Shown here one piece after another: positions 14,182-21,195 of a stretch of 21,195 nucleotides of DNA. The notes under the pieces were generated by a model. That model was given only the letters and a program-made list of their open reading frames with translations. It was not told where the DNA came from and searched no databases. A program made the position numbers and the translations under genes. This stretch comes from a virus (Duplodnaviria > Heunggongvirae > Uroviricota > Caudoviricetes), in IMG/VR virus record IMGVR_UViG_2534681940_000040, one strand, 5' to 3'. Positions within the stretch are counted from its first letter, which is position 1; each line of letters starts with the position of its first letter.

Positions 14182-16148
14182 CTGGCTGAACCGCTTCCGA
14201 TTACGTCAAAAACAGGGCCAAACCGTTCAAAGGTGTCGCGCAACGGGGTCAGCCTTTCCATAATCCCGCTGAACACCCCGGCAAAGAAAGCCCTGATAGG
14301 ATCCCAGTATTTCCAGATAAGAACGGCAGCTCCGGCAAGCGCAGCCACGATAAGACCAACCGGACTGAACAACGCCCCGATAACGCCTCCCAGTAAAGAA
14401 ACGGAACCCGTCACCATTCCCCATAGCGCAGGTAACACCCTGACGACATTCATTGACCGGGTAAGAATGTCAAAACCAAGACGCAGGGTGGCCAGCTTCC
14501 CGTAAAGCACCCCAATAACCAGCGACAACGAGCCAATCGTTGCAGTCATTGCCAGCAACGCACCGCCTGCTATCAGTAGCTGGCGCGTCAGTACCGGATG
14601 GGCCTGCGCCAGCGAGGTGATTTTTTCAAGCACCCGCGTGAGCCACTGCGTGACAGAACGCAGCGGACCGTCAACCAGATCACTGATGCGAATACGAAGA
14701 CCTTCCCATGCGCTGTCGAGATTTTTCAGGTCCCCATCAAGATTATCAGCCATTACTTTTGCGACGCGATCGGCCTCTCCCCTTGCCCCCTGCAATTCTC
14801 TGGTCAGTTTTTGCAGCTCTCCTGAACCAGCCGCCGCAACAAGCGTCTGCAAACCAACGAACGCCTCTTCTCCGGCGATGTCCTTGAAGAAGGAGACCTG
14901 GTCCACCTGTCCGTATTTTTGTGTCGCCTTATAGAGATCAAGCAGCACATCCTCCATCGGGCGCATTTTGCCTCTGGCCTCAGCAACTGACACCCCCAGC
15001 TCTTTCAGTGCATCAGCCGCAGCTTTTGGCGGTGATGCAAGGCGGGACAGACTTGCGCGCATGGCCGTGCCAGCATCGCTTCCGCGAAGACCATTATTGG
15101 CAAGCATCCCGGCCATGGCCGCCGCTTCTTCAAGACTGATACCAAGTTTTGCGGCAACCGGACCGGTATACTTCATGGTTTCGCCCAGCGCGCGTAAATC
15201 AGTATTGGTCCGGGTAAATGCTGCTGTCAGCGTATCGCCCACCCGGTCCATTTGATCGGCTGTCAGGTTGAACTGTGTGAGGATATTGGAGCCTATATCA
15301 GCCGTCTCGCCGAGTTCGACGCCACCTGCCAGCGCCATATTAAGAACACCGGGCAATGCGGCCTGAATGGCCTGCGGAGTAAAACCAGCCATTGCCAGAA
15401 AGCTCTGCCCACTGGCGGCATCACTCGCAGTAAACTGTGTTTCAGCAAGTTTTAACGCCTGCTCACGCAGCGCCTTAAACTGCGGGCTGTTTTTGTCGAT
15501 TCGCGTCAGTGCCTGAACGCGGGACATCTCTTTGCCGAACCCGATCGCAGGCTGCAAAAAACGCCCGGCAGCATAGCCGCCCGCCGCTGCCGCACCAATT
15601 GCCAGCGCACCACCTGTTTTCAGTTTTCCCGCGGTTTCCTGCGCGTGCGAATACCGCTCACGCGCCTGCGTTACACGCGCAAGCGCCTGCCGTTCGCGTT
15701 CAAGCTGGTTGTTGTATTGTTCGGTGCGTCTGATGGCCTGCTGAATGGTGTTATCGCTGCCTGTCAGGGAAATGCCGTGGCGTTTCAGCTCTCCGCCAAG
15801 TTCCCTCATTTTCTGAATTTCCCGTGTGCGCGATTCATTCAGGCGTTCAAGCCGGGTGCTTAACTGCTGCATCAGCTTTTGTTGTTTTTCGCTGAGCACT
15901 GTACCCGTGCGTTGTAACTGATTAAGGGCGTTAAGCTGGCGTCGTGCTTTCACGATGCCAGCATCCGCTTTACTGACAGCGTCGCGGGCGCGCTCAAATG
16001 ATCGCGCCTGACGCTCGAGATTTTTGATCGCCCCCTGCGTTCGCTGGATGGAGTCACCAAACTGCCCCATCAGGCGGCGTGCGTTTTCGGCAGGTCGGGT
16101 CAGCCTGTCAACGGCGCTGAAAGCGACCCGGATATCAAGAGTCTTCAT
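14058..16148 (-). CDS. T: tail tape measure protein, N-terminal portion (gene apparently frameshifted)
   Basis: Long ORF starting MKTLDIRV at ATG 16148, overlapping the E' stop. Its last approximately 40 residues are Cys/Arg/Trp-rich and look out of frame. Confidence 0.75.
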   Translation of the reverse strand: MKTLDIRVAFSAVDRLTRPAENARRLMGQFGDSIQRTQGAIKNLERQARSFERARDAVSKADAGIVKARRQLNALNQLQRTGTVLSEKQQKLMQQLSTRLERLNESRTREIQKMRELGGELKRHGISLTGSDNTIQQAIRRTEQYNNQLERERQALARVTQARERYSHAQETAGKLKTGGALAIGAAAAGGYAAGRFLQPAIGFGKEMSRVQALTRIDKNSPQFKALREQALKLAETQFTASDAASGQSFLAMAGFTPQAIQAALPGVLNMALAGGVELGETADIGSNILTQFNLTADQMDRVGDTLTAAFTRTNTDLRALGETMKYTGPVAAKLGISLEEAAAMAGMLANNGLRGSDAGTAMRASLSRLASPPKAAADALKELGVSVAEARGKMRPMEDVLLDLYKATQKYGQVDQVSFFKDIAGEEAFVGLQTLVAAAGSGELQKLTRELQGARGEADRVAKVMADNLDGDLKNLDSAWEGLRIRISDLVDGPLRSVTQWLTRVLEKITSLAQAHPVLTRQLLIAGGALLAMTATIGSLSLVIGVLYGKLATLRLGFDILTRSMNVVRVLPALWGMVTGSVSLLGGVIGALFSPVGLIVAALAGAAVLIWKYWDPIRAFFAGVFSGIMERLTPLRDTFERFGPVFDVIGSGSARCLTGLNRCCHRWSPARKRWINVPVLARYSVTFLVVRYSLF

Positions 16149-16664
16149 TGTCTGCATTCCCGCTGCGAAGTGCCGCCCGCTCACGCCAGCTAACCACTTC
16201 GCCGGGCGTCATCATGAAGATTTCGGCGGGCGACCAGTTAAAAATAACGGCAATATCTGCCACAAAGTCTTCTATGTGCTCAAAGCACACAACCGTGATC
16301 AGGCTTCCGTCGCCTGTTCGTTCTTCCCGCCAGAGTCCGCACCGCTCAAAAAATTTACGGCAACCACACATAACTGAATAAAGTCACGGGATGCCATTTT
16401 TTTGATCGTCACTTCATCCAGTCGCGGTGATGTCACGCGTGACAGCAGCGTAAACATGGATTCCGCTTTCAGATTCAGCACATCAGACAGCGACAAATCT
16501 CGCAGAGATCCAGCCTGCTCAATAGCCCCGGTGATCTCCACATACGTGATTTTTTCGCCGCCTCGCTCAATTGGTTGGGTAAGTTTTACACCACGCTCAC
16601 TGGTTTCTTTCACAGTGTCAGTAACTACCGTGTTTTCGGTATCGATGTTTTTCGTCTCTTTCAT
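16135..16664 (-). CDS. gpE+E' -1 programmed-frameshift fusion product
   Basis: Slippery heptamer T-TTT-TTG at 16347-16353 (minus strand) in the E frame. The -1 frame continues KFFERCG... to a stop at 16135, overlapping the T start. Confidence 0.7.
16299..16664 (-). CDS. E: tail assembly chaperone gpE
   Basis: 121-aa ORF with SD AAGGAG 7 nt upstream; position between the tube and tape-measure genes. Confidence 0.85.
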   Translation of the reverse strand: MKETKNIDTENTVVTDTVKETSERGVKLTQPIERGGEKITYVEITGAIEQAGSLRDLSLSDVLNLKAESMFTLLSRVTSPRLDEVTIKKMASRDFIQLCVVAVNFLSGADSGGKNEQATEA

Positions 16665-16718
16665 CAGGAAACTCCTTTCAGTCAGAGGCGACGCACTGCG
16701 CCGCCTGCATATTACTTA

Positions 16719-17231
16719 TCAGCCAAGCCCAAGCGCGGAACGGATGCGATCGGGCACAATGTCCTTGCCGTCCTTCCGGTAAATGAAGTTCAGCAGGTCA
16801 ATCTCCCACAACGGGCGATCGTTAACACTCAGCTTGTAGTAGGTGTTTTTAATGGCGTAAGTGTGTGATGTGGCTTCGCCCTGTTTGGCTTCCCCCATAT
16901 CAATTTCCGTCACACGTCCGCGCATTTCGACTTCATACAGGTCGCTTTCATCATCGGTGTAGTATTCCCCCGCAAAACGCAGTAGCGTGCCGTCAATCGT
17001 GCCGCCATACTTCAGGAACAGCTCACGAACTGCGCCCCCCATGACAAAGCTCGCATCAAGCGCGGAGTCGTCCAGGCCGAGGTCAATACTTACCGCACCC
17101 ATCATGCCACCACCCCGGTAGCTGTCGGTTTTGCGCGTCAGTTTAGGCAGGGTGACGGACGTCACCTTACCCACTTCGTTTTCACCATCCACAAACAGCG
17201 TAAAAAAGCGAAGATGTTTTGGTACAGCCAT
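16719..17231 (-). CDS. FII: tail tube protein gpFII
   Basis: 170-aa ORF; size and sequence fit P2 FII (172 aa) as recalled. Start overlaps the FI stop (TGATG). Confidence 0.9.
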   Translation of the reverse strand: MAVPKHLRFFTLFVDGENEVGKVTSVTLPKLTRKTDSYRGGGMMGAVSIDLGLDDSALDASFVMGGAVRELFLKYGGTIDGTLLRFAGEYYTDDESDLYEVEMRGRVTEIDMGEAKQGEATSHTYAIKNTYYKLSVNDRPLWEIDLLNFIYRKDGKDIVPDRIRSALGLG

Positions 17232-18415
17232 CAGGCACCTCCCAGCACCGCAAATGCGGGACCAAAGAATTCATCAGTAAACGACTGGTAAAGCTCCATG
17301 TCTTCCAGCGGAGGAACGGGCGTATATTTGTAGCGAATACGCACACGCCCCTGACGTAAATTCGTGGTGCTGTTATCCTCGATGTCATACCAGCACTCCG
17401 CGCCAATCAGTTTCCCGGCAGTAACCAGTGAATCCAGTTTTGCCCTGATGGCACTGATAACATCCTTCACGTTCGCAGGTGTCAGTGGACTGTCGATGGT
17501 TTCAAACTGCGCTTCCGCAATTGAATCAGCCAGCACCTGTGCGGTTCGGGTATACACCTCAAAGATGTAGGCGTTCGTTTCCGGTGTGCGGTTGCCCCAG
17601 AAGCGGAACCCGTTGCGACGAATAATGGTCGTGATTTCTTTGTTGTTGAGGCTGTTGGCATCACTGTCTTCGGCCTGCAACGACCAGAACACATGCCTCG
17701 ACATCCCAAGCACATTTTTAACCGGAACGTTGGACAGCGATTTGTGCCAGCCCTGCTCATGGTCAATGTACGCACGAAGGCCGCACGCATAAGCAGGCGC
17801 GGGGAACGTTTCGTTTTTGCCACTTTTCAGGTTGTAGGCGATGAAGTCAGGCCATAAGAGCATCACCTCACGTTCGTTGAATTTCTGGCGGTAGGTAATC
17901 GCCTCAGCCATCGTGTTACAACCATGACATGTGGCATACACAAACGCGCGCAGTTTACCCGCAATCACGCACAGGGATTTTGTTACCGCCTCCGTGTCCA
18001 GCTCCGGCGCGGCCAGAATACGCGGACGGTATCCGATGCTTTCATCCTGCTCTGCAACAAGCAGCGCATACATCCCCGTATAGCTGCCGTCAGATTCAGA
18101 ACCACCGATAACCAGTTGATCCTGCGTCTTACCGCCTTCTTCTTTGTGTTCAGCCACGCGAACGACGATCACTTTTGTGCTCACCTGGTCTGCGATAGCC
18201 TTAAGCGCACGATAAAGCGTCCCCGTAGTCCCGCATTTTCCCAGCACGTCATTGACGCGGGTCAGCAGTGTGGGCTTGTTCAGCGGGAACAGCTCCGCGT
18301 CCGCATCATCTGCCGTTGCCACGATACCGATAACACTGGAATCAACATCATTAATCGCTGTTACCAGGTCGGTACTTTCCGTAACACGGGCACCATGAAA
18401 ACGAGTTTCACTCAT
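17231..18415 (-). CDS. FI: contractile tail sheath protein gpFI
   Basis: 394-aa ORF (P2 FI is 396 aa) with SD AAGGGG upstream. Confidence 0.9.
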   Translation of the reverse strand: MSETRFHGARVTESTDLVTAINDVDSSVIGIVATADDADAELFPLNKPTLLTRVNDVLGKCGTTGTLYRALKAIADQVSTKVIVVRVAEHKEEGGKTQDQLVIGGSESDGSYTGMYALLVAEQDESIGYRPRILAAPELDTEAVTKSLCVIAGKLRAFVYATCHGCNTMAEAITYRQKFNEREVMLLWPDFIAYNLKSGKNETFPAPAYACGLRAYIDHEQGWHKSLSNVPVKNVLGMSRHVFWSLQAEDSDANSLNNKEITTIIRRNGFRFWGNRTPETNAYIFEVYTRTAQVLADSIAEAQFETIDSPLTPANVKDVISAIRAKLDSLVTAGKLIGAECWYDIEDNSTTNLRQGRVRIRYKYTPVPPLEDMELYQSFTDEFFGPAFAVLGGA

Positions 18416-18573
18416 AGCTTCAGCCCCTTGTATCCGTTAAATGATTCGGCAACAATCATCACCCACCACTCGCGTAATCTCACCCCTGCGCCGTTCATCC
18501 CGCCACGGCGACAACAAAAAGCAGTAACCCCCTCCGCACGCACATGCGACCATGCCGCACAGGGAGGGAACAG

Positions 18574-18742
18574 ATGACCGACACCACCATGCAATTGCTC
18601 AGTCAGGGCACAGACCACGTGAAAGTGCCGGATTTTGATATTCTCGCGGAGGGTAAAACGCTGTCAGGCGTGGCAGAGCGCCTGATGAGCCTGTCACTGA
18701 CCGACAACCGGGGATTTGAGGCGGACCAGCTCACCATCACGC
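18574..18742 (+). pseudogene. D: tail protein gpD, N-terminal fragment interrupted by IS3
   Basis: ATG 18574 with SD GGGAGGG. Encodes MTDTTMQLL...LSLTDNRGFEADQLTITL, matching the gpD N-terminal motif (LTDNRG.EADQL) as recalled. Frame is broken by IS3 at 18743. Confidence 0.8.
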
Positions 18743-18796
18743 TGAACCGCCCCGGGAATCCTGGAGACTAAACTCCCTGAGAAAGAGGTAAACAGG

Positions 18797-19123
18797 ATGA
18801 CTAAAAATACACGTTTTTCCCCCGAGGTCCGTCAACGGGCAGTCCGTATGGTTCTGGAAAGTCAGGGCGAATATGACTCACAATGGGCGGCAATTTGTTC
18901 CATTGCCCCAAAGATTGGCTGTACACCAGAGACTCTGCGTGTGTGGGTTCGTCAGCATGAGCGGGATACCGGGGGCGGTGATGGTGGACTCACCACCGCT
19001 GAACGTCAGCGTCTGAAAGAGCTGGAACGTGAAAATCGTGAACTGCGCCGCAGTAACGATATCCTTCGCCAGGCTTCCGCTTATTTTGCGAAGGCGGAGT
19101 TCGACCGCCTCTGGAAAAAATAA
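18797..19123 (+). CDS. insE: IS3 orfA (InsE)
   Basis: 108-aa ORF; recognised IS3 orfA sequence. Confidence 0.9.
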
Positions 19124-20010
19124 TGCCGCTGCTGGATAAGCTGCGTGAGCAGTACGGGGTCGGACCGGTATGCAGTGAACTGCATATTGCCCCGTCAACG
19201 TATTACCACTGTCAGCAACAGCGACATCATCCGGATAAACGCAGTGCCCGTGCGCAGCGCGATGACTGGCTGAAGAGAGAGATACAGCGCGTATACGATG
19301 AAAATCATCAGGTGTACGGTGTGCGTAAAGTCTGGCGCCAGTTGTTACGCGAAGGTATCAGGGTGGCCAGATGTACAGTGGCGCGCCTCATGGCGGTTAT
19401 GGGACTTGCCGGTGTTCTCCGGGGTAAAAAGGTCCGTACTACCGTCAGCCGGAAAGCCGTTTCCGCAGGCGACCGCGTAAACCGTCAGTTCGTGGCAGAA
19501 CGTCCTGACCAGCTGTGGGTGGCTGATTTTACTTACGTCAGCACATGGCAGGGCTTCGTCTATGTGGCGTTCATCATTGATGTGTTTTCCGGATGTATCG
19601 TGGGGTGGCGAGTCTCATCGTCTATGGAAACGACATTCGTGCTGGATGCACTGGAGCAGGCGTTGTGGGCCCGTCGGCCGTCCGGCACAGTCCATCACAG
19701 TGATAAAGGTTCTCAGTATGTATCACTGGCCTATACGGAGCGACTAAAAGAAGCAAAACTGCTGGCATCAACAGGGAGTACAGGTGACTCGTATGACAAC
19801 GCGATGGCGGAGAGCATCAATGGTCTTTACAAAGCGGAGGTAATACACCGTAAGAGCTGGAAAAACCGTGCAGAAGTGGAACTGGCCACACTCACGTGGG
19901 TGGACTGGTATAACAATCGACGATTGCTGGGAAGGCTGGGTCATATCCCTCCGGCAGAAGCAGAAAAAGCTTATTATGCTTCCATCAGAAACGATGATCT
20001 GGCAGCCTGA
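19123..20010 (+). CDS. insF: IS3 orfB transposase (InsF), DDE integrase fold
   Basis: 295-aa ORF in the -1 frame relative to orfA, start overlapping the orfA stop (TAATG). Confidence 0.9.
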   Translation: MPLLDKLREQYGVGPVCSELHIAPSTYYHCQQQRHHPDKRSARAQRDDWLKREIQRVYDENHQVYGVRKVWRQLLREGIRVARCTVARLMAVMGLAGVLRGKKVRTTVSRKAVSAGDRVNRQFVAERPDQLWVADFTYVSTWQGFVYVAFIIDVFSGCIVGWRVSSSMETTFVLDALEQALWARRPSGTVHHSDKGSQYVSLAYTERLKEAKLLASTGSTGDSYDNAMAESINGLYKAEVIHRKSWKNRAEVELATLTWVDWYNNRRLLGRLGHIPPAEAEKAYYASIRNDDLAA

Positions 20011-20052
20011 GTTCACAGATAAAACACTCTCCAGGAAAACCGGGGCGGTTCA

Positions 20053-20153
20053 CGCTGGATGATGCAGATGGTCAGTTGCAGCTACCGCCACGGGGCGCGC
20101 GCCTGACGGTTCTCATTGGCTGGAAAGGAGAACCGCTGACAGAAAAAGGCACT
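20053..20153 (+). pseudogene. D: tail protein gpD, internal fragment between IS3 and IS30
   Basis: With one CGC copy removed the reading continues in frame: ...TITL|DDADGQLQLPPRGARLTVLIGWKGEPLTEKGT, then is cut by the IS30 end at 20154. Confidence 0.75.
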
Positions 20154-21195
20154 TGTAGATTCAATCTGTCAATGCAACACCCCTTTCAATTATCTCTTTC
20201 GGTGTTTTGAACTTCAGTGTCTTTCTCGGTCTGTTGTTTAGCTGAGCAGCAACCAGATCTAGTTCATGTTGAGTATATTGGGCAAGACATGTCTTTTTAG
20301 GAAAGTACTGCCGAATTAGCCCATTTGTGTTCTCATTTGTTCCCCGCTGCCAAGGACTCTGAGGATCGCAGAAGTAAACTTTAACGCCGGTGCTGACAGT
20401 AAATTCTAGATGTCTGGCCAGTTCCATTCCTCTGTCCCATGTCAGTGATTTTCTGAGTTCTGACGGTAAACTCAGGAATTTGTCGGTAAGAGCCTGATTT
20501 ACTGAGACAGAATCTTTGCCCCTGAGTCTGAGGATGATCGTATAACGTGATTTTCGGTCTACAAGTGTGGCTATATGAGAGTTTTTTGTACCTGAGACTA
20601 AATCGCCCTCCCAATGCCCTAGAGAGCGTCTGTTATCGATATTTCGGGAACGTTCGTGAATTGGTGTTCCGTTCACTATGTTAATCGTACCTCTTTCGCC
20701 TTTGCGGGTATGACGCCTGCCATGGCGAAGGCTATGCGACCGTCGCAGATGCTGTATATTCAGGTGGTGTAGCGCTTCACGGCTACGAAAGTACAGCGTT
20801 TTATAAATTGTCTCAGGTGATATTCGCAGCGTTTTTTGACGTGGTTTTGTTCGCCTTAACCATCCTGATATTTGCTCTGGAGACCATTTCATCTCCAGCT
20901 TTTCCAGAACAAGCTTTCGCAATGGTAAATTTTGATCCAGTAAGCACGGTTTTGGCCTTTTCGCCATTCTGTTGGCTCGGTTATTAGCATCAACAGCTTT
21001 GTAATAGCGTCTGCCCCGATTACGCTGAACTTCACGTGAGATCGTCGAAGGACTGCGATTCAGCGCAGTAGCTATCGCACGAATGCTCATTTTGGCTGAC
21101 AAACCAGCTCGTATCTCCTCGCGCTCAGACAGTGTCAGGTGAGCTACAGCCCGCTTACGCTCATGGGGTTTTATGCCGCCAGTATCCCTTAACAT
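20154..21195 (-). mobile_element. IS30, partial (runs off the window end)
   Basis: Terminal IR TGTAGATTCAATCTGTCAATGCAACA at 20154-20179; transposase on the minus strand. Confidence 0.85.
20161..21195 (-). CDS. insI: IS30 transposase (InsI), N-terminus beyond the window
   Basis: 344 aa visible, recognised as the IS30 transposase (about 383 aa full length). Stop at 20161-20163. Confidence 0.9.
   Translation of the reverse strand: MLRDTGGIKPHERKRAVAHLTLSEREEIRAGLSAKMSIRAIATALNRSPSTISREVQRNRGRRYYKAVDANNRANRMAKRPKPCLLDQNLPLRKLVLEKLEMKWSPEQISGWLRRTKPRQKTLRISPETIYKTLYFRSREALHHLNIQHLRRSHSLRHGRRHTRKGERGTINIVNGTPIHERSRNIDNRRSLGHWEGDLVSGTKNSHIATLVDRKSRYTIILRLRGKDSVSVNQALTDKFLSLPSELRKSLTWDRGMELARHLEFTVSTGVKVYFCDPQSPWQRGTNENTNGLIRQYFPKKTCLAQYTQHELDLVAAQLNNRPRKTLKFKTPKEIIERGVALTD

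What the first reader, a model, noticed from the sequence alone, without database searches (positions are those of the whole stretch)
16135..16664. Conserved -1 programmed frameshift site for gpE/gpE+E' retained in a defective prophage
Seen in sequence: in the E frame the minus strand reads GTA AAT TTT TTG AGC, with the slippery heptamer T-TTT-TTG at 16347-16353. The -1 frame is open from there (KFFERCGLWREE...) to a stop at 16135, overlapping the tape-measure start. Established knowledge: P2 gpE and gpE+E' are made by a -1 frameshift at TTTTTTG, analogous to lambda G/GT. The recoding signal survives even though the gpD gene is IS-disrupted and the tape-measure gene is apparently frameshifted.
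Basis: partly seen in the sequence, partly recalled or inferred. Interest (0 to 1): 0.4.

Follow-up and report, generated by a model that had tools for sequence, protein, structure and literature searches.

The report
P2-type tail chaperone frameshift site
This is the well-known ribosome-slippage signal that P2-like phages use to make a long and a short form of a tail-assembly chaperone, sitting intact but probably idle in a crippled prophage of E. coli O157:H7, so it is ordinary.

Summary
The minus-strand ORF 16664..16299 (121 aa) reads GTA AAT TTT TTG AGC. T_TTT_TTG lies at 16353..16347 in the X_XXY_YYZ phase. The -1 frame is open from 16383 to TGA at 16137..16135, overlapping the tape-measure ATG (16148) by 14 nt.

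The trans-frame product (176 aa) aligns along most of its length with P2 gpE+E' (E 9e-26), with the junction "FL" in the same column. Its C-terminus hits Pfam Phage_P2_GpE. The gene order is sheath, tube, E, E', T, U.

Of 88 loci (77 distinct overlap sequences), 73 keep in-phase TTTTTTG. Conservation switches from the 0 frame to the -1 frame at the site. No downstream structure or independent E' start was found.

The element is the O157:H7 P2-like defective prophage (Sp13 type), a relative of phage P88 (Xuanwuvirus) rather than of P2 itself. The tape-measure frameshift and the IS-disrupted gpD are confirmed.

Two nuances:
- Retention says nothing about selection, because this stretch is 99.6% identical to live phage P88.
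- The window has a second, overlapping in-phase heptamer, A_AAT_TTT. The sister clade, including plaque-forming ΦSM, has lost T6G and keeps only that one.

Verdict: already known, low interest.

The parts
16299..16664 (-). gpE homologue (tail assembly chaperone, short form), 121 aa, zero frame
   Evidence: ORF and translation are. It hits phrog_103 'tail protein' at E 2.3e-35 and aligns with P2 gpE. The Pfam Phage_TAC_7 score is only 17.2 bits, below the 25-bit cutoff.
16347..16353 (-). T_TTT_TTG slippery heptamer in X_XXY_YYZ phase (P2-type site)
   Evidence: It occupies the same column as the annotated P2 frameshift site. It is present in phase in 73 of 88 loci surveyed, and columns 0-5 are 99-100% conserved.
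16350..16356 (-). Second, overlapping in-phase heptamer A_AAT_TTT
   Evidence: Read from the sequence and listed by the script. It is the only in-phase heptamer in the sister Xuanwuvirus clade.
16135..16347 (-). E' coding segment read in the -1 frame after the slip (70 codons plus stop); with E codons 1-106 it gives a 176-aa gpE+E' homologue
   Evidence: It hits Pfam PF06528 at 45.3 bits and phrog_1756 at E 6e-41. The -1 frame is better conserved than the zero frame downstream of the site.
16384..16386 (-). TGA that closes the -1 frame upstream, so the overlap window is 16383..16302
16397..16403 (-). A7 run (ATC AAA AAA ATG) in E; considered as an alternative slip site and rejected for this window
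   Evidence: A -1 slip here meets TGA after 4 codons. Database fusions P0057 and P0058 change frame at this run in the sister clade.
13345..16148 (-). Tape-measure gene (gpT homologue), pseudogene with a 1-nt deletion near 14193; its ATG overlaps the end of E'
   Evidence: It hits Pfam PF10145 and TIGR01760. tblastn against P88 T changes frame at 14172-14217, and the alignment shows the deletion. PGAP marks it 'frameshifted'.
16719..17231 (-). Tail tube gene (FII homologue) immediately upstream of E
   Evidence: Pfam PF04985, E 1.3e-47.
17231..18415 (-). Tail sheath gene (FI homologue)
   Evidence: Pfam PF04984, PF22671 and PF17482.
12844..13338 (-). gpU homologue downstream of T
   Evidence: Pfam PF06995, E 1.5e-38.
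18743..20053 (+). IS629-like IS3-family element splitting the 5' fragment of gpD (gpD remnants at about 18574-18744 and 20050-20154)
   Evidence: NCBIfam transpos_IS3; blastn against P88; comparison with TW14359.

Best explanation
The region encodes the P2-type tail assembly chaperone pair.

Mechanism (inferred from homologues):
- Ribosomes translating E (16664..16299, minus strand) mostly stop at TGA 16301..16299 and make a 121-aa protein.
- A minority slip back one nucleotide on the run A_AAT_TTT_TTG (16356..16347). They continue in the -1 frame to TGA 16137..16135 and make a 176-aa E+E' fusion.
- The C-terminal domain of that fusion is the conserved 'GpE' domain.
- In P2 and lambda, such pairs act on the tape-measure protein and the tail tube during tail assembly and are not part of the virion.
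- No downstream RNA structure or upstream Shine-Dalgarno stimulator is involved.

Shown here: the anatomy, the homology, the conservation of the site, and the switch of the conserved frame at the site.

Inferred: that slippage actually happens on this mRNA, its rate, and which of the two overlapping heptamers carries it.

In this host the signal is a recent relic.
- The prophage is the O157:H7 Sp13-type element. It has lost its head, baseplate and most other morphogenetic genes.
- Its tape measure is frameshifted and its gpD is destroyed, so the chaperone pair has nothing to assemble.
- The site is intact because the module is still about 99.6% identical to that of live phage P88, not because it is being maintained.
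For: - Sequence anatomy.
- Homology to P2 E+E' along most of the product, with the junction residues aligned. The P2 record annotates the -1 frameshift at the same heptamer.
- Pfam PF06528 on the -1 part; sheath, tube, tape measure and gpU around it. PHROG tail families.
- Survey of 88 loci (77 distinct overlap sequences) from phage records and 80 species genomes: 73 have in-phase TTTTTTG, most others have TTTTTTA/C, CCCTTTC or AAATTTT, and 4 have no in-phase heptamer.
- Heptamer columns are 92-100% conserved against 33-100% in the flanks.
- Mean pairwise amino-acid identity upstream of the site is 0.56 in the zero frame and 0.32 in the -1 frame. Downstream it is 0.47 and 0.61.
- No start codon with an SD for E' in any of 74 distinct homologues.
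- No structure: folding z-scores of +0.27 and +0.48, consensus fold -0.01 kcal/mol with no covariation, no Rfam hit.
- Literature: P2 shifts at TTTTTTG to give E (91 aa) and E+E' (142 aa) and has no hairpin (PMC3091744). P2-group efficiency is 2-3 times that of lambda G-T (PMC5009743).
- Defective context; Sp13 lacks most morphogenetic genes (PMC2669165).
- Near-identity to P88. All 80 close viral contigs have the same site.
Against: - Nothing here measures frameshifting.
- In E. coli reporters, U_UUU_UUG is a weak shifter: 0.118% without a stimulator, 0.25% with the IS911 stimulators and 0.77% with the IS3 pseudoknot, against a background of about 0.055% (PMC4066793, Table S3). No stimulator was found here, so the rate could be very low, or the real site could be the overlapping A_AAT_TTT.
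- The sister clade, including plaque-forming ΦSM, lacks TTTTTTG (PMC6456863). The P2-type heptamer is therefore not indispensable in this genus.
- Pfam's TAC model for the E half scores below its cutoff (17.2 against 25 bits).
- Whether the late operon is transcribed at all in this prophage is unknown. No Ogr homologue was found in the window.
Confidence: 0.9

Rival explanations
1. The operative slip site in this lineage is the upstream overlapping heptamer A_AAT_TTT (P site AAT, A site TTT), giving ...VNFF-ERCG.... The P2-type T_TTT_TTG would then be redundant or minor.
For: - All Xuanwuvirus sequences examined keep GTA AAT TTT.
- The sister clade (3 phage records and 80 viral contigs) has TTTTATG, so AAATTTT is its only in-phase heptamer. 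ΦSM of that clade forms plaques (PMC6456863).
- In 3 sister loci a synonymous CGC>CGT change puts a TGA in the -1 frame between the A7 run and AAATTTT. That rules out the A7 run as their site.
- In E. coli reporters the best motifs allow cognate A-site re-pairing. With the IS3 pseudoknot, AAAUUUU reaches 11.4% against 0.77% for UUUUUUG (PMC4066793).
- Relatives that lost T6G also keep an upstream XXXTTTY heptamer, for example CCCTTTC in a Klebsiella Reipivirus.
Against: - Without a stimulator AAAUUUU is no better than UUUUUUG (0.070% against 0.118%), and no stimulator was found here.
- Most of the family, including P2 where the site was studied experimentally, has TTTTTTG with no upstream XXX triplet.
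- The two sites may simply add up.
Confidence: 0.3
2. E' is made by independent initiation, as RefSeq/PGAP annotate it: a 51-aa 'GpE family phage tail protein' starting at GTG 16290. No recoding would be involved.
For: PGAP and the P88 RefSeq record list E and the small ORF as two separate CDSs. A GTG exists at 16290.
Against: - No SD precedes that GTG.
- Among 74 distinct homologues only 17 have any ATG/GTG/TTG in the E' frame between the heptamer and the conserved domain. None of those has an SD-like motif, and their positions are not conserved.
- The -1 frame is conserved from the heptamer onward, upstream of the GTG.
- The P2 record annotates E+E' as a joined frameshift product sharing the amino terminus of gpE (PMC3091744).
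Confidence: 0.03
3. The frame change is made by RNA polymerase slippage on the T6 run (an extra U in some transcripts) rather than by the ribosome.
For: Homopolymer runs can cause transcriptional slippage. Runs of 7 A or U are depleted in E. coli genes in all frames, possibly for that reason (PMC4066793). The product would be VNFF-ER, which sequence analysis alone cannot distinguish from a slip at A_AAT_TTT.
Against: - A 6-nt run is shorter than those known to me to give efficient slippage by E. coli RNA polymerase (own knowledge).
- Family conservation includes the phase and the seventh base: G in 92% of sequences. These matter for tRNA re-pairing, not for polymerase slippage.
- Relatives with CCCTTTC or TTTTATG have only 3-4 T in a row.
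Confidence: 0.04
4. The motif is a chance occurrence in a decaying pseudogene region and has no relation to recoding.
For: TTTTTTG occurs 17 times in the window, and the prophage is defective.
Against: The motif is in phase, at the homologous column and inside the ORF overlap in 73 of 88 loci. The conserved frame switches at the site. Only this copy has the right ORF geometry.
Confidence: 0.01

Closest known systems
Bacteriophage P2 gpE / gpE+E' programmed -1 frameshift (Christie et al. 2002, as cited in PMC3091744 and PMC5009743; NC_001895 annotation)
   Same: - Position between the tail tube gene (FII) and the tape-measure gene (T).
- The same heptamer, T_TTT_TTG, in the same phase and the same alignment column.
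- Homologous E and E' domains (31% identity, E 9e-26).
- E' ends overlapping the start of T.
- No downstream hairpin.
   Different: - E is longer here (121 aa against 91 aa). The 0 and -1 frames overlap over 82 nt rather than 34 nt, and the E stop lies 52 nt after the site rather than 25 nt.
- A second in-phase heptamer, A_AAT_TTT, overlaps the first. P2 has GGT TTT TTG, with no upstream XXX triplet.
- There is no DNA-level similarity to P2. gpD is transcribed divergently upstream of the sheath gene rather than after gpU.
- Here the surrounding tail operon is broken.
Phage P88 and other Xuanwuvirus (Peduoviridae) E/E' region
   Same: The stretch is 99.6% identical over 701 nt to P88 (gp47 and gp46), with identical overlap and heptamers.
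   Different: - P88 is an inducible, lytic-competent phage with an intact tape measure and gpD.
- The sister clade (P884B11, 503458, 520873, ΦSM) carries TTTTATG, and its -1 frame is open back to the A7 run.
Lambda G/GT and the general tail assembly chaperone frameshift of long-tailed phages (Levin 1993; Xu, Hendrix and Duda 2004, 2013, 2014, as summarised in PMC5009743)
   Same: - Two proteins share an N-terminus through a low-level -1 slip.
- The gene pair lies between the major tail gene and the tape-measure gene.
- The products act as assembly chaperones and are absent from virions.
   Different: - No sequence similarity to lambda G or T was tested or expected.
- Lambda slips on G_GGA_AAG.
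- This is a contractile-tail phage.
IS3-family transposase -1 frameshift (A_AAA_AAG plus the ALIL pseudoknot), also present in this window
   Same: A -1 slip on an X_XXY_YYZ heptamer joins two overlapping ORFs.
   Different: The IS3 site has a strong downstream pseudoknot (Rfam ALIL at 19078-19194, 120.9 bits). The E/E' site has no detectable stimulator.

Membership tests
P2-type gpE/gpE+E' recoding pair (Peduoviridae tail assembly chaperones) | Located between the tail tube gene and the tape-measure gene of a contractile-tail module | tested here: met
   The order sheath (PF04984), tube (PF04985), E, E', T (PF10145/TIGR01760), U (PF06995) is shown. P88 has the same order.
P2-type gpE/gpE+E' recoding pair (Peduoviridae tail assembly chaperones) | Downstream ORF in the -1 frame, overlapping the 3' end of E | tested here: met
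   The overlap is 82 nt (16383..16302), and the -1 extension is 70 codons.
P2-type gpE/gpE+E' recoding pair (Peduoviridae tail assembly chaperones) | In-phase X_XXY_YYZ slippery heptamer inside the overlap (TTTTTTG in P2) | tested here: met
   T_TTT_TTG lies at 16353..16347 and A_AAT_TTT at 16356..16350.
P2-type gpE/gpE+E' recoding pair (Peduoviridae tail assembly chaperones) | E' domain homologous to P2 E' (Pfam PF06528) | tested here: met
   45.3 bits against a 23-bit cutoff, E 6e-12. BLASTP against P2 E+E' gives E 9e-26.
P2-type gpE/gpE+E' recoding pair (Peduoviridae tail assembly chaperones) | E domain homologous to P2 gpE / the TAC family | tested here: met
   The BLASTP alignment covers window residues 23-105 against P2 residues 4-85, and phrog_103 scores E 2e-35. 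Pfam PF10109 alone is below its cutoff (17.2 against 25 bits).
P2-type gpE/gpE+E' recoding pair (Peduoviridae tail assembly chaperones) | Heptamer conserved at the same position across homologues while flanking sites vary | tested here: met
   73 of 88 loci have in-phase TTTTTTG. Columns 0-5 are 99-100% conserved and G is 92%. The exceptions keep an adjacent heptamer.
P2-type gpE/gpE+E' recoding pair (Peduoviridae tail assembly chaperones) | No independent translation start for E' | tested here: met
   None of 74 distinct homologues has a start codon with an SD-like motif in the E' frame downstream of the site.
P2-type gpE/gpE+E' recoding pair (Peduoviridae tail assembly chaperones) | A trans-frame protein is actually produced and is needed for tail assembly | not testable with these tools
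   This needs a reporter assay, mass spectrometry or phage genetics. In this prophage the partners (T, D, baseplate, head) are broken or absent (PMC2669165).
Stimulated -1 PRF signals (dnaX / IS3 type) | Downstream hairpin or pseudoknot, or an upstream SD-like stimulator | tested here: not met
   Folding is no better than shuffled sequence (z +0.27 and +0.48). The family has no consensus structure and there is no Rfam hit. By eye I saw no SD-like sequence 6-17 nt upstream.
Lambda G/GT-type tail assembly chaperone frameshift | Analogous gene position and -1 fusion; sequence homology is not required | tested here: met
   Position and geometry are shown. This is a functional analogy only; homology to lambda G/T was not tested.

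The most novel reading that the evidence does not exclude
Within Xuanwuvirus the working slip site may be A_AAU_UUU, three nucleotides upstream of the P2 position. The P2-type U_UUU_UUG would then be dispensable: it is present in the P88/Sp13 subclade and lost by a single T>A change in the ΦSM/P884B11 subclade. That would document turnover of a recoding site between overlapping heptamers in closely related, viable phages. It would also bear on a puzzle: U_UUU_UUG is a weak shifter in E. coli reporters (0.1-0.8%), yet it dominates the P2 family, whose reported efficiency is 2-3 times that of lambda's G-T site (molar ratio about 30:1).
Probability: 0.3. Interest if true: 0.3.

Novelty: already known. 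Interest (0 to 1): 0.12.

Why it matters
It matters little beyond annotation.
- RefSeq/PGAP and the P88 record list E and a 51-aa 'GpE family' ORF as two separate genes. The correct model is a joined -1 frameshift CDS (E+E', 176 aa) plus E.
- The site is a textbook example. Its intactness in the O157:H7 Sp13-type prophage reflects recent descent from a P88-like phage, not maintained function.
- The only mildly informative by-product concerns the genus as a whole. It carries two overlapping heptamers, and one viable subclade has lost the canonical P2 one. That offers a natural experiment on which heptamer drives tail-chaperone frameshifting.

Tried and rejected
- **A7 run (16403..16397) as an alternative slip site.** Rejected for this window because the -1 frame meets TGA four codons later. 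It is also disfavoured in the sister clade, because 3 of 80 loci have a synonymous change that closes the -1 frame there. Database fusion proteins that change frame at that run (P0057, P0058) are probably indel variants or assembly errors.
- **Downstream stimulatory structure.** Single-sequence folds are no better than shuffles. The RNAalifold consensus over 14 diverse homologues is empty. Rfam finds nothing at E <= 1.
- **Independent initiation of E'.** No conserved start or SD.
- **Solved structures.** There is no PDB relative of E+E' (best E 0.84).
- **Late activator and promoter.** tblastn with P2 Ogr finds nothing significant in the window (best E 0.11). No TGT-N12-ACA motif lies upstream of the sheath gene. 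Expression status is therefore left open.
- **Christie et al. 2002.** The paper could not be read because it is not held. Its content is cited only through PMC3091744 and PMC5009743.
- **First viral-contig scans.** They returned only 98-100% identical copies. These were useful for invariance but not for diversity, which came from the genome-contig scan.
Full report
**1. Observation**

Reading the minus strand and the ORF table confirms each statement in the finding.
- An ATG at 16664 opens a 121-codon ORF that ends in TGA at 16301..16299.
- Codons 103-107 read GTA AAT TTT TTG AGC.
- TTTTTTG occupies 16353..16347. Its first T is the third base of AAT, which is the X_XXY_YYZ phase needed for tandem -1 slippage.
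- The -1 frame (KFFERCGLWREE...) is open from 16383, after a TGA at 16386..16384, down to TGA at 16137..16135.
- The tape-measure ATG is at 16148..16146, so the two genes overlap by 14 nt.

TTTTTTG by itself is common in this window: 17 copies against 6.8 expected. Only the 16353 copy sits near the 3' end of a long ORF with a long -1 extension: 121 open codons upstream, 17 to the stop, and 70 codons in the -1 frame.

**2. What the genes are**

The flanking ORFs on the same strand are:
- a tail sheath (PF04984, PF22671, PF17482);
- a tail tube (PF04985, E 1e-47);
- a tape-measure protein (PF10145; TIGR01760);
- gpU (PF06995).

The trans-frame product has 176 aa. Its C-terminal part hits Pfam Phage_P2_GpE (PF06528) at 45.3 bits against a cutoff of 23, and phrog_1756. 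The E part hits phrog_103, but scores only 17.2 bits against a 25-bit cutoff on Pfam Phage_TAC_7.

I built P2 gpE+E' from the P2 record, where the -1 frameshift is annotated at the same heptamer. It aligns with the window product across both halves at 31% identity and E 9e-26. The junction residues 'FL' fall in the same column.

**3. Where it comes from**

The stretch has no DNA-level match to P2. It is 99.6% identical over 701 nt to inducible phage P88 (Xuanwuvirus, Peduoviridae).

The right-hand 9.2 kb of the window (12000-21195) matches at 99.9% a prophage of E. coli O157:H7 strains. A direct comparison with strain TW14359 gives 99.95% over window 1-18744. There the prophage lies between yecA/int and a tRNA-Leu/Cys/Gly cluster.

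This corresponds to the P2-like prophage Sp13 of O157 Sakai. [quoted passage not shown]

- The tape-measure gene changes frame at 14172-14217 relative to P88 because of a 1-nt deletion near 14193. PGAP calls it 'frameshifted'.
- gpD retains only about 89 codons. These are split by a 1311-bp IS629-like IS3 element (18743-20053), and the rest is replaced by IS30.

**4. Is the heptamer conserved?**

I collected phage records and 80 loci from one-genome-per-species bacterial contigs, using an alignment of five E+E' proteins. I located E' with an HMM and analysed the zero/-1 overlap in each locus.
- Of 88 loci (77 distinct overlap sequences), 73 have in-phase TTTTTTG.
- Most of the others have TTTTTTA, TTTTTTC, CCCTTTC or AAATTTT. 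Four have no in-phase heptamer in the overlap; three that I inspected, all from Symbiopectobacterium, look fused or degraded.
- Aligned on the site, heptamer columns 0-5 are 99-100% conserved and the G is 92%, against 33-100% for the flanks.
- In the subfamily with the window's geometry, mean pairwise amino-acid identity upstream of the site is 0.56 in the zero frame and 0.32 in the -1 frame. Downstream it is 0.47 and 0.61. Selection therefore changes frame exactly at the heptamer.
- Independent initiation of E', as the RefSeq two-CDS annotation implies, is not supported. None of 74 distinct homologues has a start codon with an SD-like motif in the E' frame downstream of the site.

**5.

The window carries two overlapping in-phase heptamers: A_AAT_TTT (16356..16350) and T_TTT_TTG (16353..16347).

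The nearest sister clade comprises P884B11, 503458, 520873 and Citrobacter phage ΦSM, at about 85% identity. It has TTTTATG at the P2 position, so AAATTTT is its only in-phase heptamer. All 80 viral contigs of that clade agree. ΦSM is a fully functional temperate phage (PMC6456863).

In that clade the -1 frame is open back to an A7 run. Three loci, however, carry a synonymous CGC>CGT change that creates a -1-frame TGA between the A7 run and AAATTTT, which argues against the A7 run as the site. In the window the same TGA is present.

E. coli reporter data (PMC4066793, Table S3) give these -1 frameshift rates, against a background of about 0.055%:

| Motif | No stimulator | IS911 stimulators | IS3 pseudoknot |
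|---|---|---|---|
| UUUUUUG | 0.118% | 0.247% | 0.765% |
| AAAUUUU | 0.070% | 0.355% | 11.4% |

Which heptamer carries the slip here cannot be decided by computation. The two products would differ by one residue (VNFL-ER against VNFF-ER).

**6. Stimulators**

- The 57 and 87 nt downstream of the site fold no better than shuffled sequence (z +0.48 and +0.27).
- A consensus fold over 14 diverse homologues is empty, with no covarying pair.
- Rfam finds nothing in 16100-16700.

This agrees with what is reported for P2 and Burkholderia P2-like phages (PMC3091744).

**7. Mechanism and present status**

The best-supported reading is a P2-type -1 programmed ribosomal frameshift that yields E and E+E'. 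These are tail assembly chaperones analogous to lambda G/GT (PMC5009743).

In this prophage the signal is intact because the module is nearly identical to that of a live phage. All 80 close viral contigs share the exact sequence. There is no evidence of selection in the host. With the tape measure, gpD, the baseplate and the head genes broken or missing, and no Ogr homologue in the window, the pair very likely has no function now.

**8. Verdict**

- The kind is already known.
- Interest is low.

Noticed in passing
window 16350-16356 (-), and loci L084-L086, L170-L249: A second in-phase heptamer, A_AAT_TTT, overlaps the P2-type site. The sister Xuanwuvirus clade (P884B11, 503458, ΦSM and 80 viral contigs) has TTTTATG and keeps only AAATTTT, even though ΦSM forms plaques.
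   Followed up: partly
window 19078-19194 (+) and 11087-11203 (-): Two Rfam ALIL pseudoknots (120.9 bits each) mark the IS3-family transposase -1 frameshift signal. One lies in the IS629-like copy inside gpD, the other in a partial inverted IS3 copy (10482-11538). The window therefore holds a second, stimulated type of programmed frameshift.
   Followed up: partly
window 5344-5418 (+) and 5454-5541 (+): isrK Hfq-binding sRNA (63 bits) and C4 antisense RNA (78.5 bits) lie just upstream of the 76-aa 'derepression protein' ORF (5598-5828; P4 epsilon-like according to PMC2669165). This looks like a P1/P7-style antisense-controlled antirepressor module. It might relate to the unexplained mitomycin C inducibility of Sp13.
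   Followed up: no
window 18743-20053 versus L002 20820-22130: The 1311-bp IS629-like element sits in the gpD 5' fragment in this window, but inside the neighbouring IS30 copy in strain TW14359. This is an insertion-site polymorphism between O157:H7 strains.
   Followed up: partly
window 15555-15561 (-): Another T_TTT_TTG lies in the correct phase inside the tape-measure gene. Its -1 frame runs only 26 codons, so it is probably incidental.
   Followed up: no
proteins P0026, P0032, P0049, P0056-P0058: Public databases hold 'hard-wired' E-E' fusion proteins of 166-179 aa. Their frame changes at the A7 run (P0058 has 15 members) or through a shortened T run (T6 to T4). They are either real indel variants at the homopolymers or assembly errors.
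   Followed up: no
window 11836-12034 (+): An Rfam IS009 sRNA hit (191 bits) lies next to the IS3 remnant and the tail fibre assembly gene fragment.
   Followed up: no
window 12115-12720 (-): A hexapeptide-repeat acetyltransferase gene (PGAP: serine O-acetyltransferase) sits where P88 has a DNA invertase and tail fibre genes. It is probably a cargo gene or moron at the deletion junction.
   Followed up: no
loci L091-L093 (Symbiopectobacterium): The E/E' regions of these three loci have no in-phase heptamer and odd ORF geometry: E' frames of 170-203 codons in L091 and L093, and both ORFs very short in L092. They appear fused or degraded.
   Followed up: no
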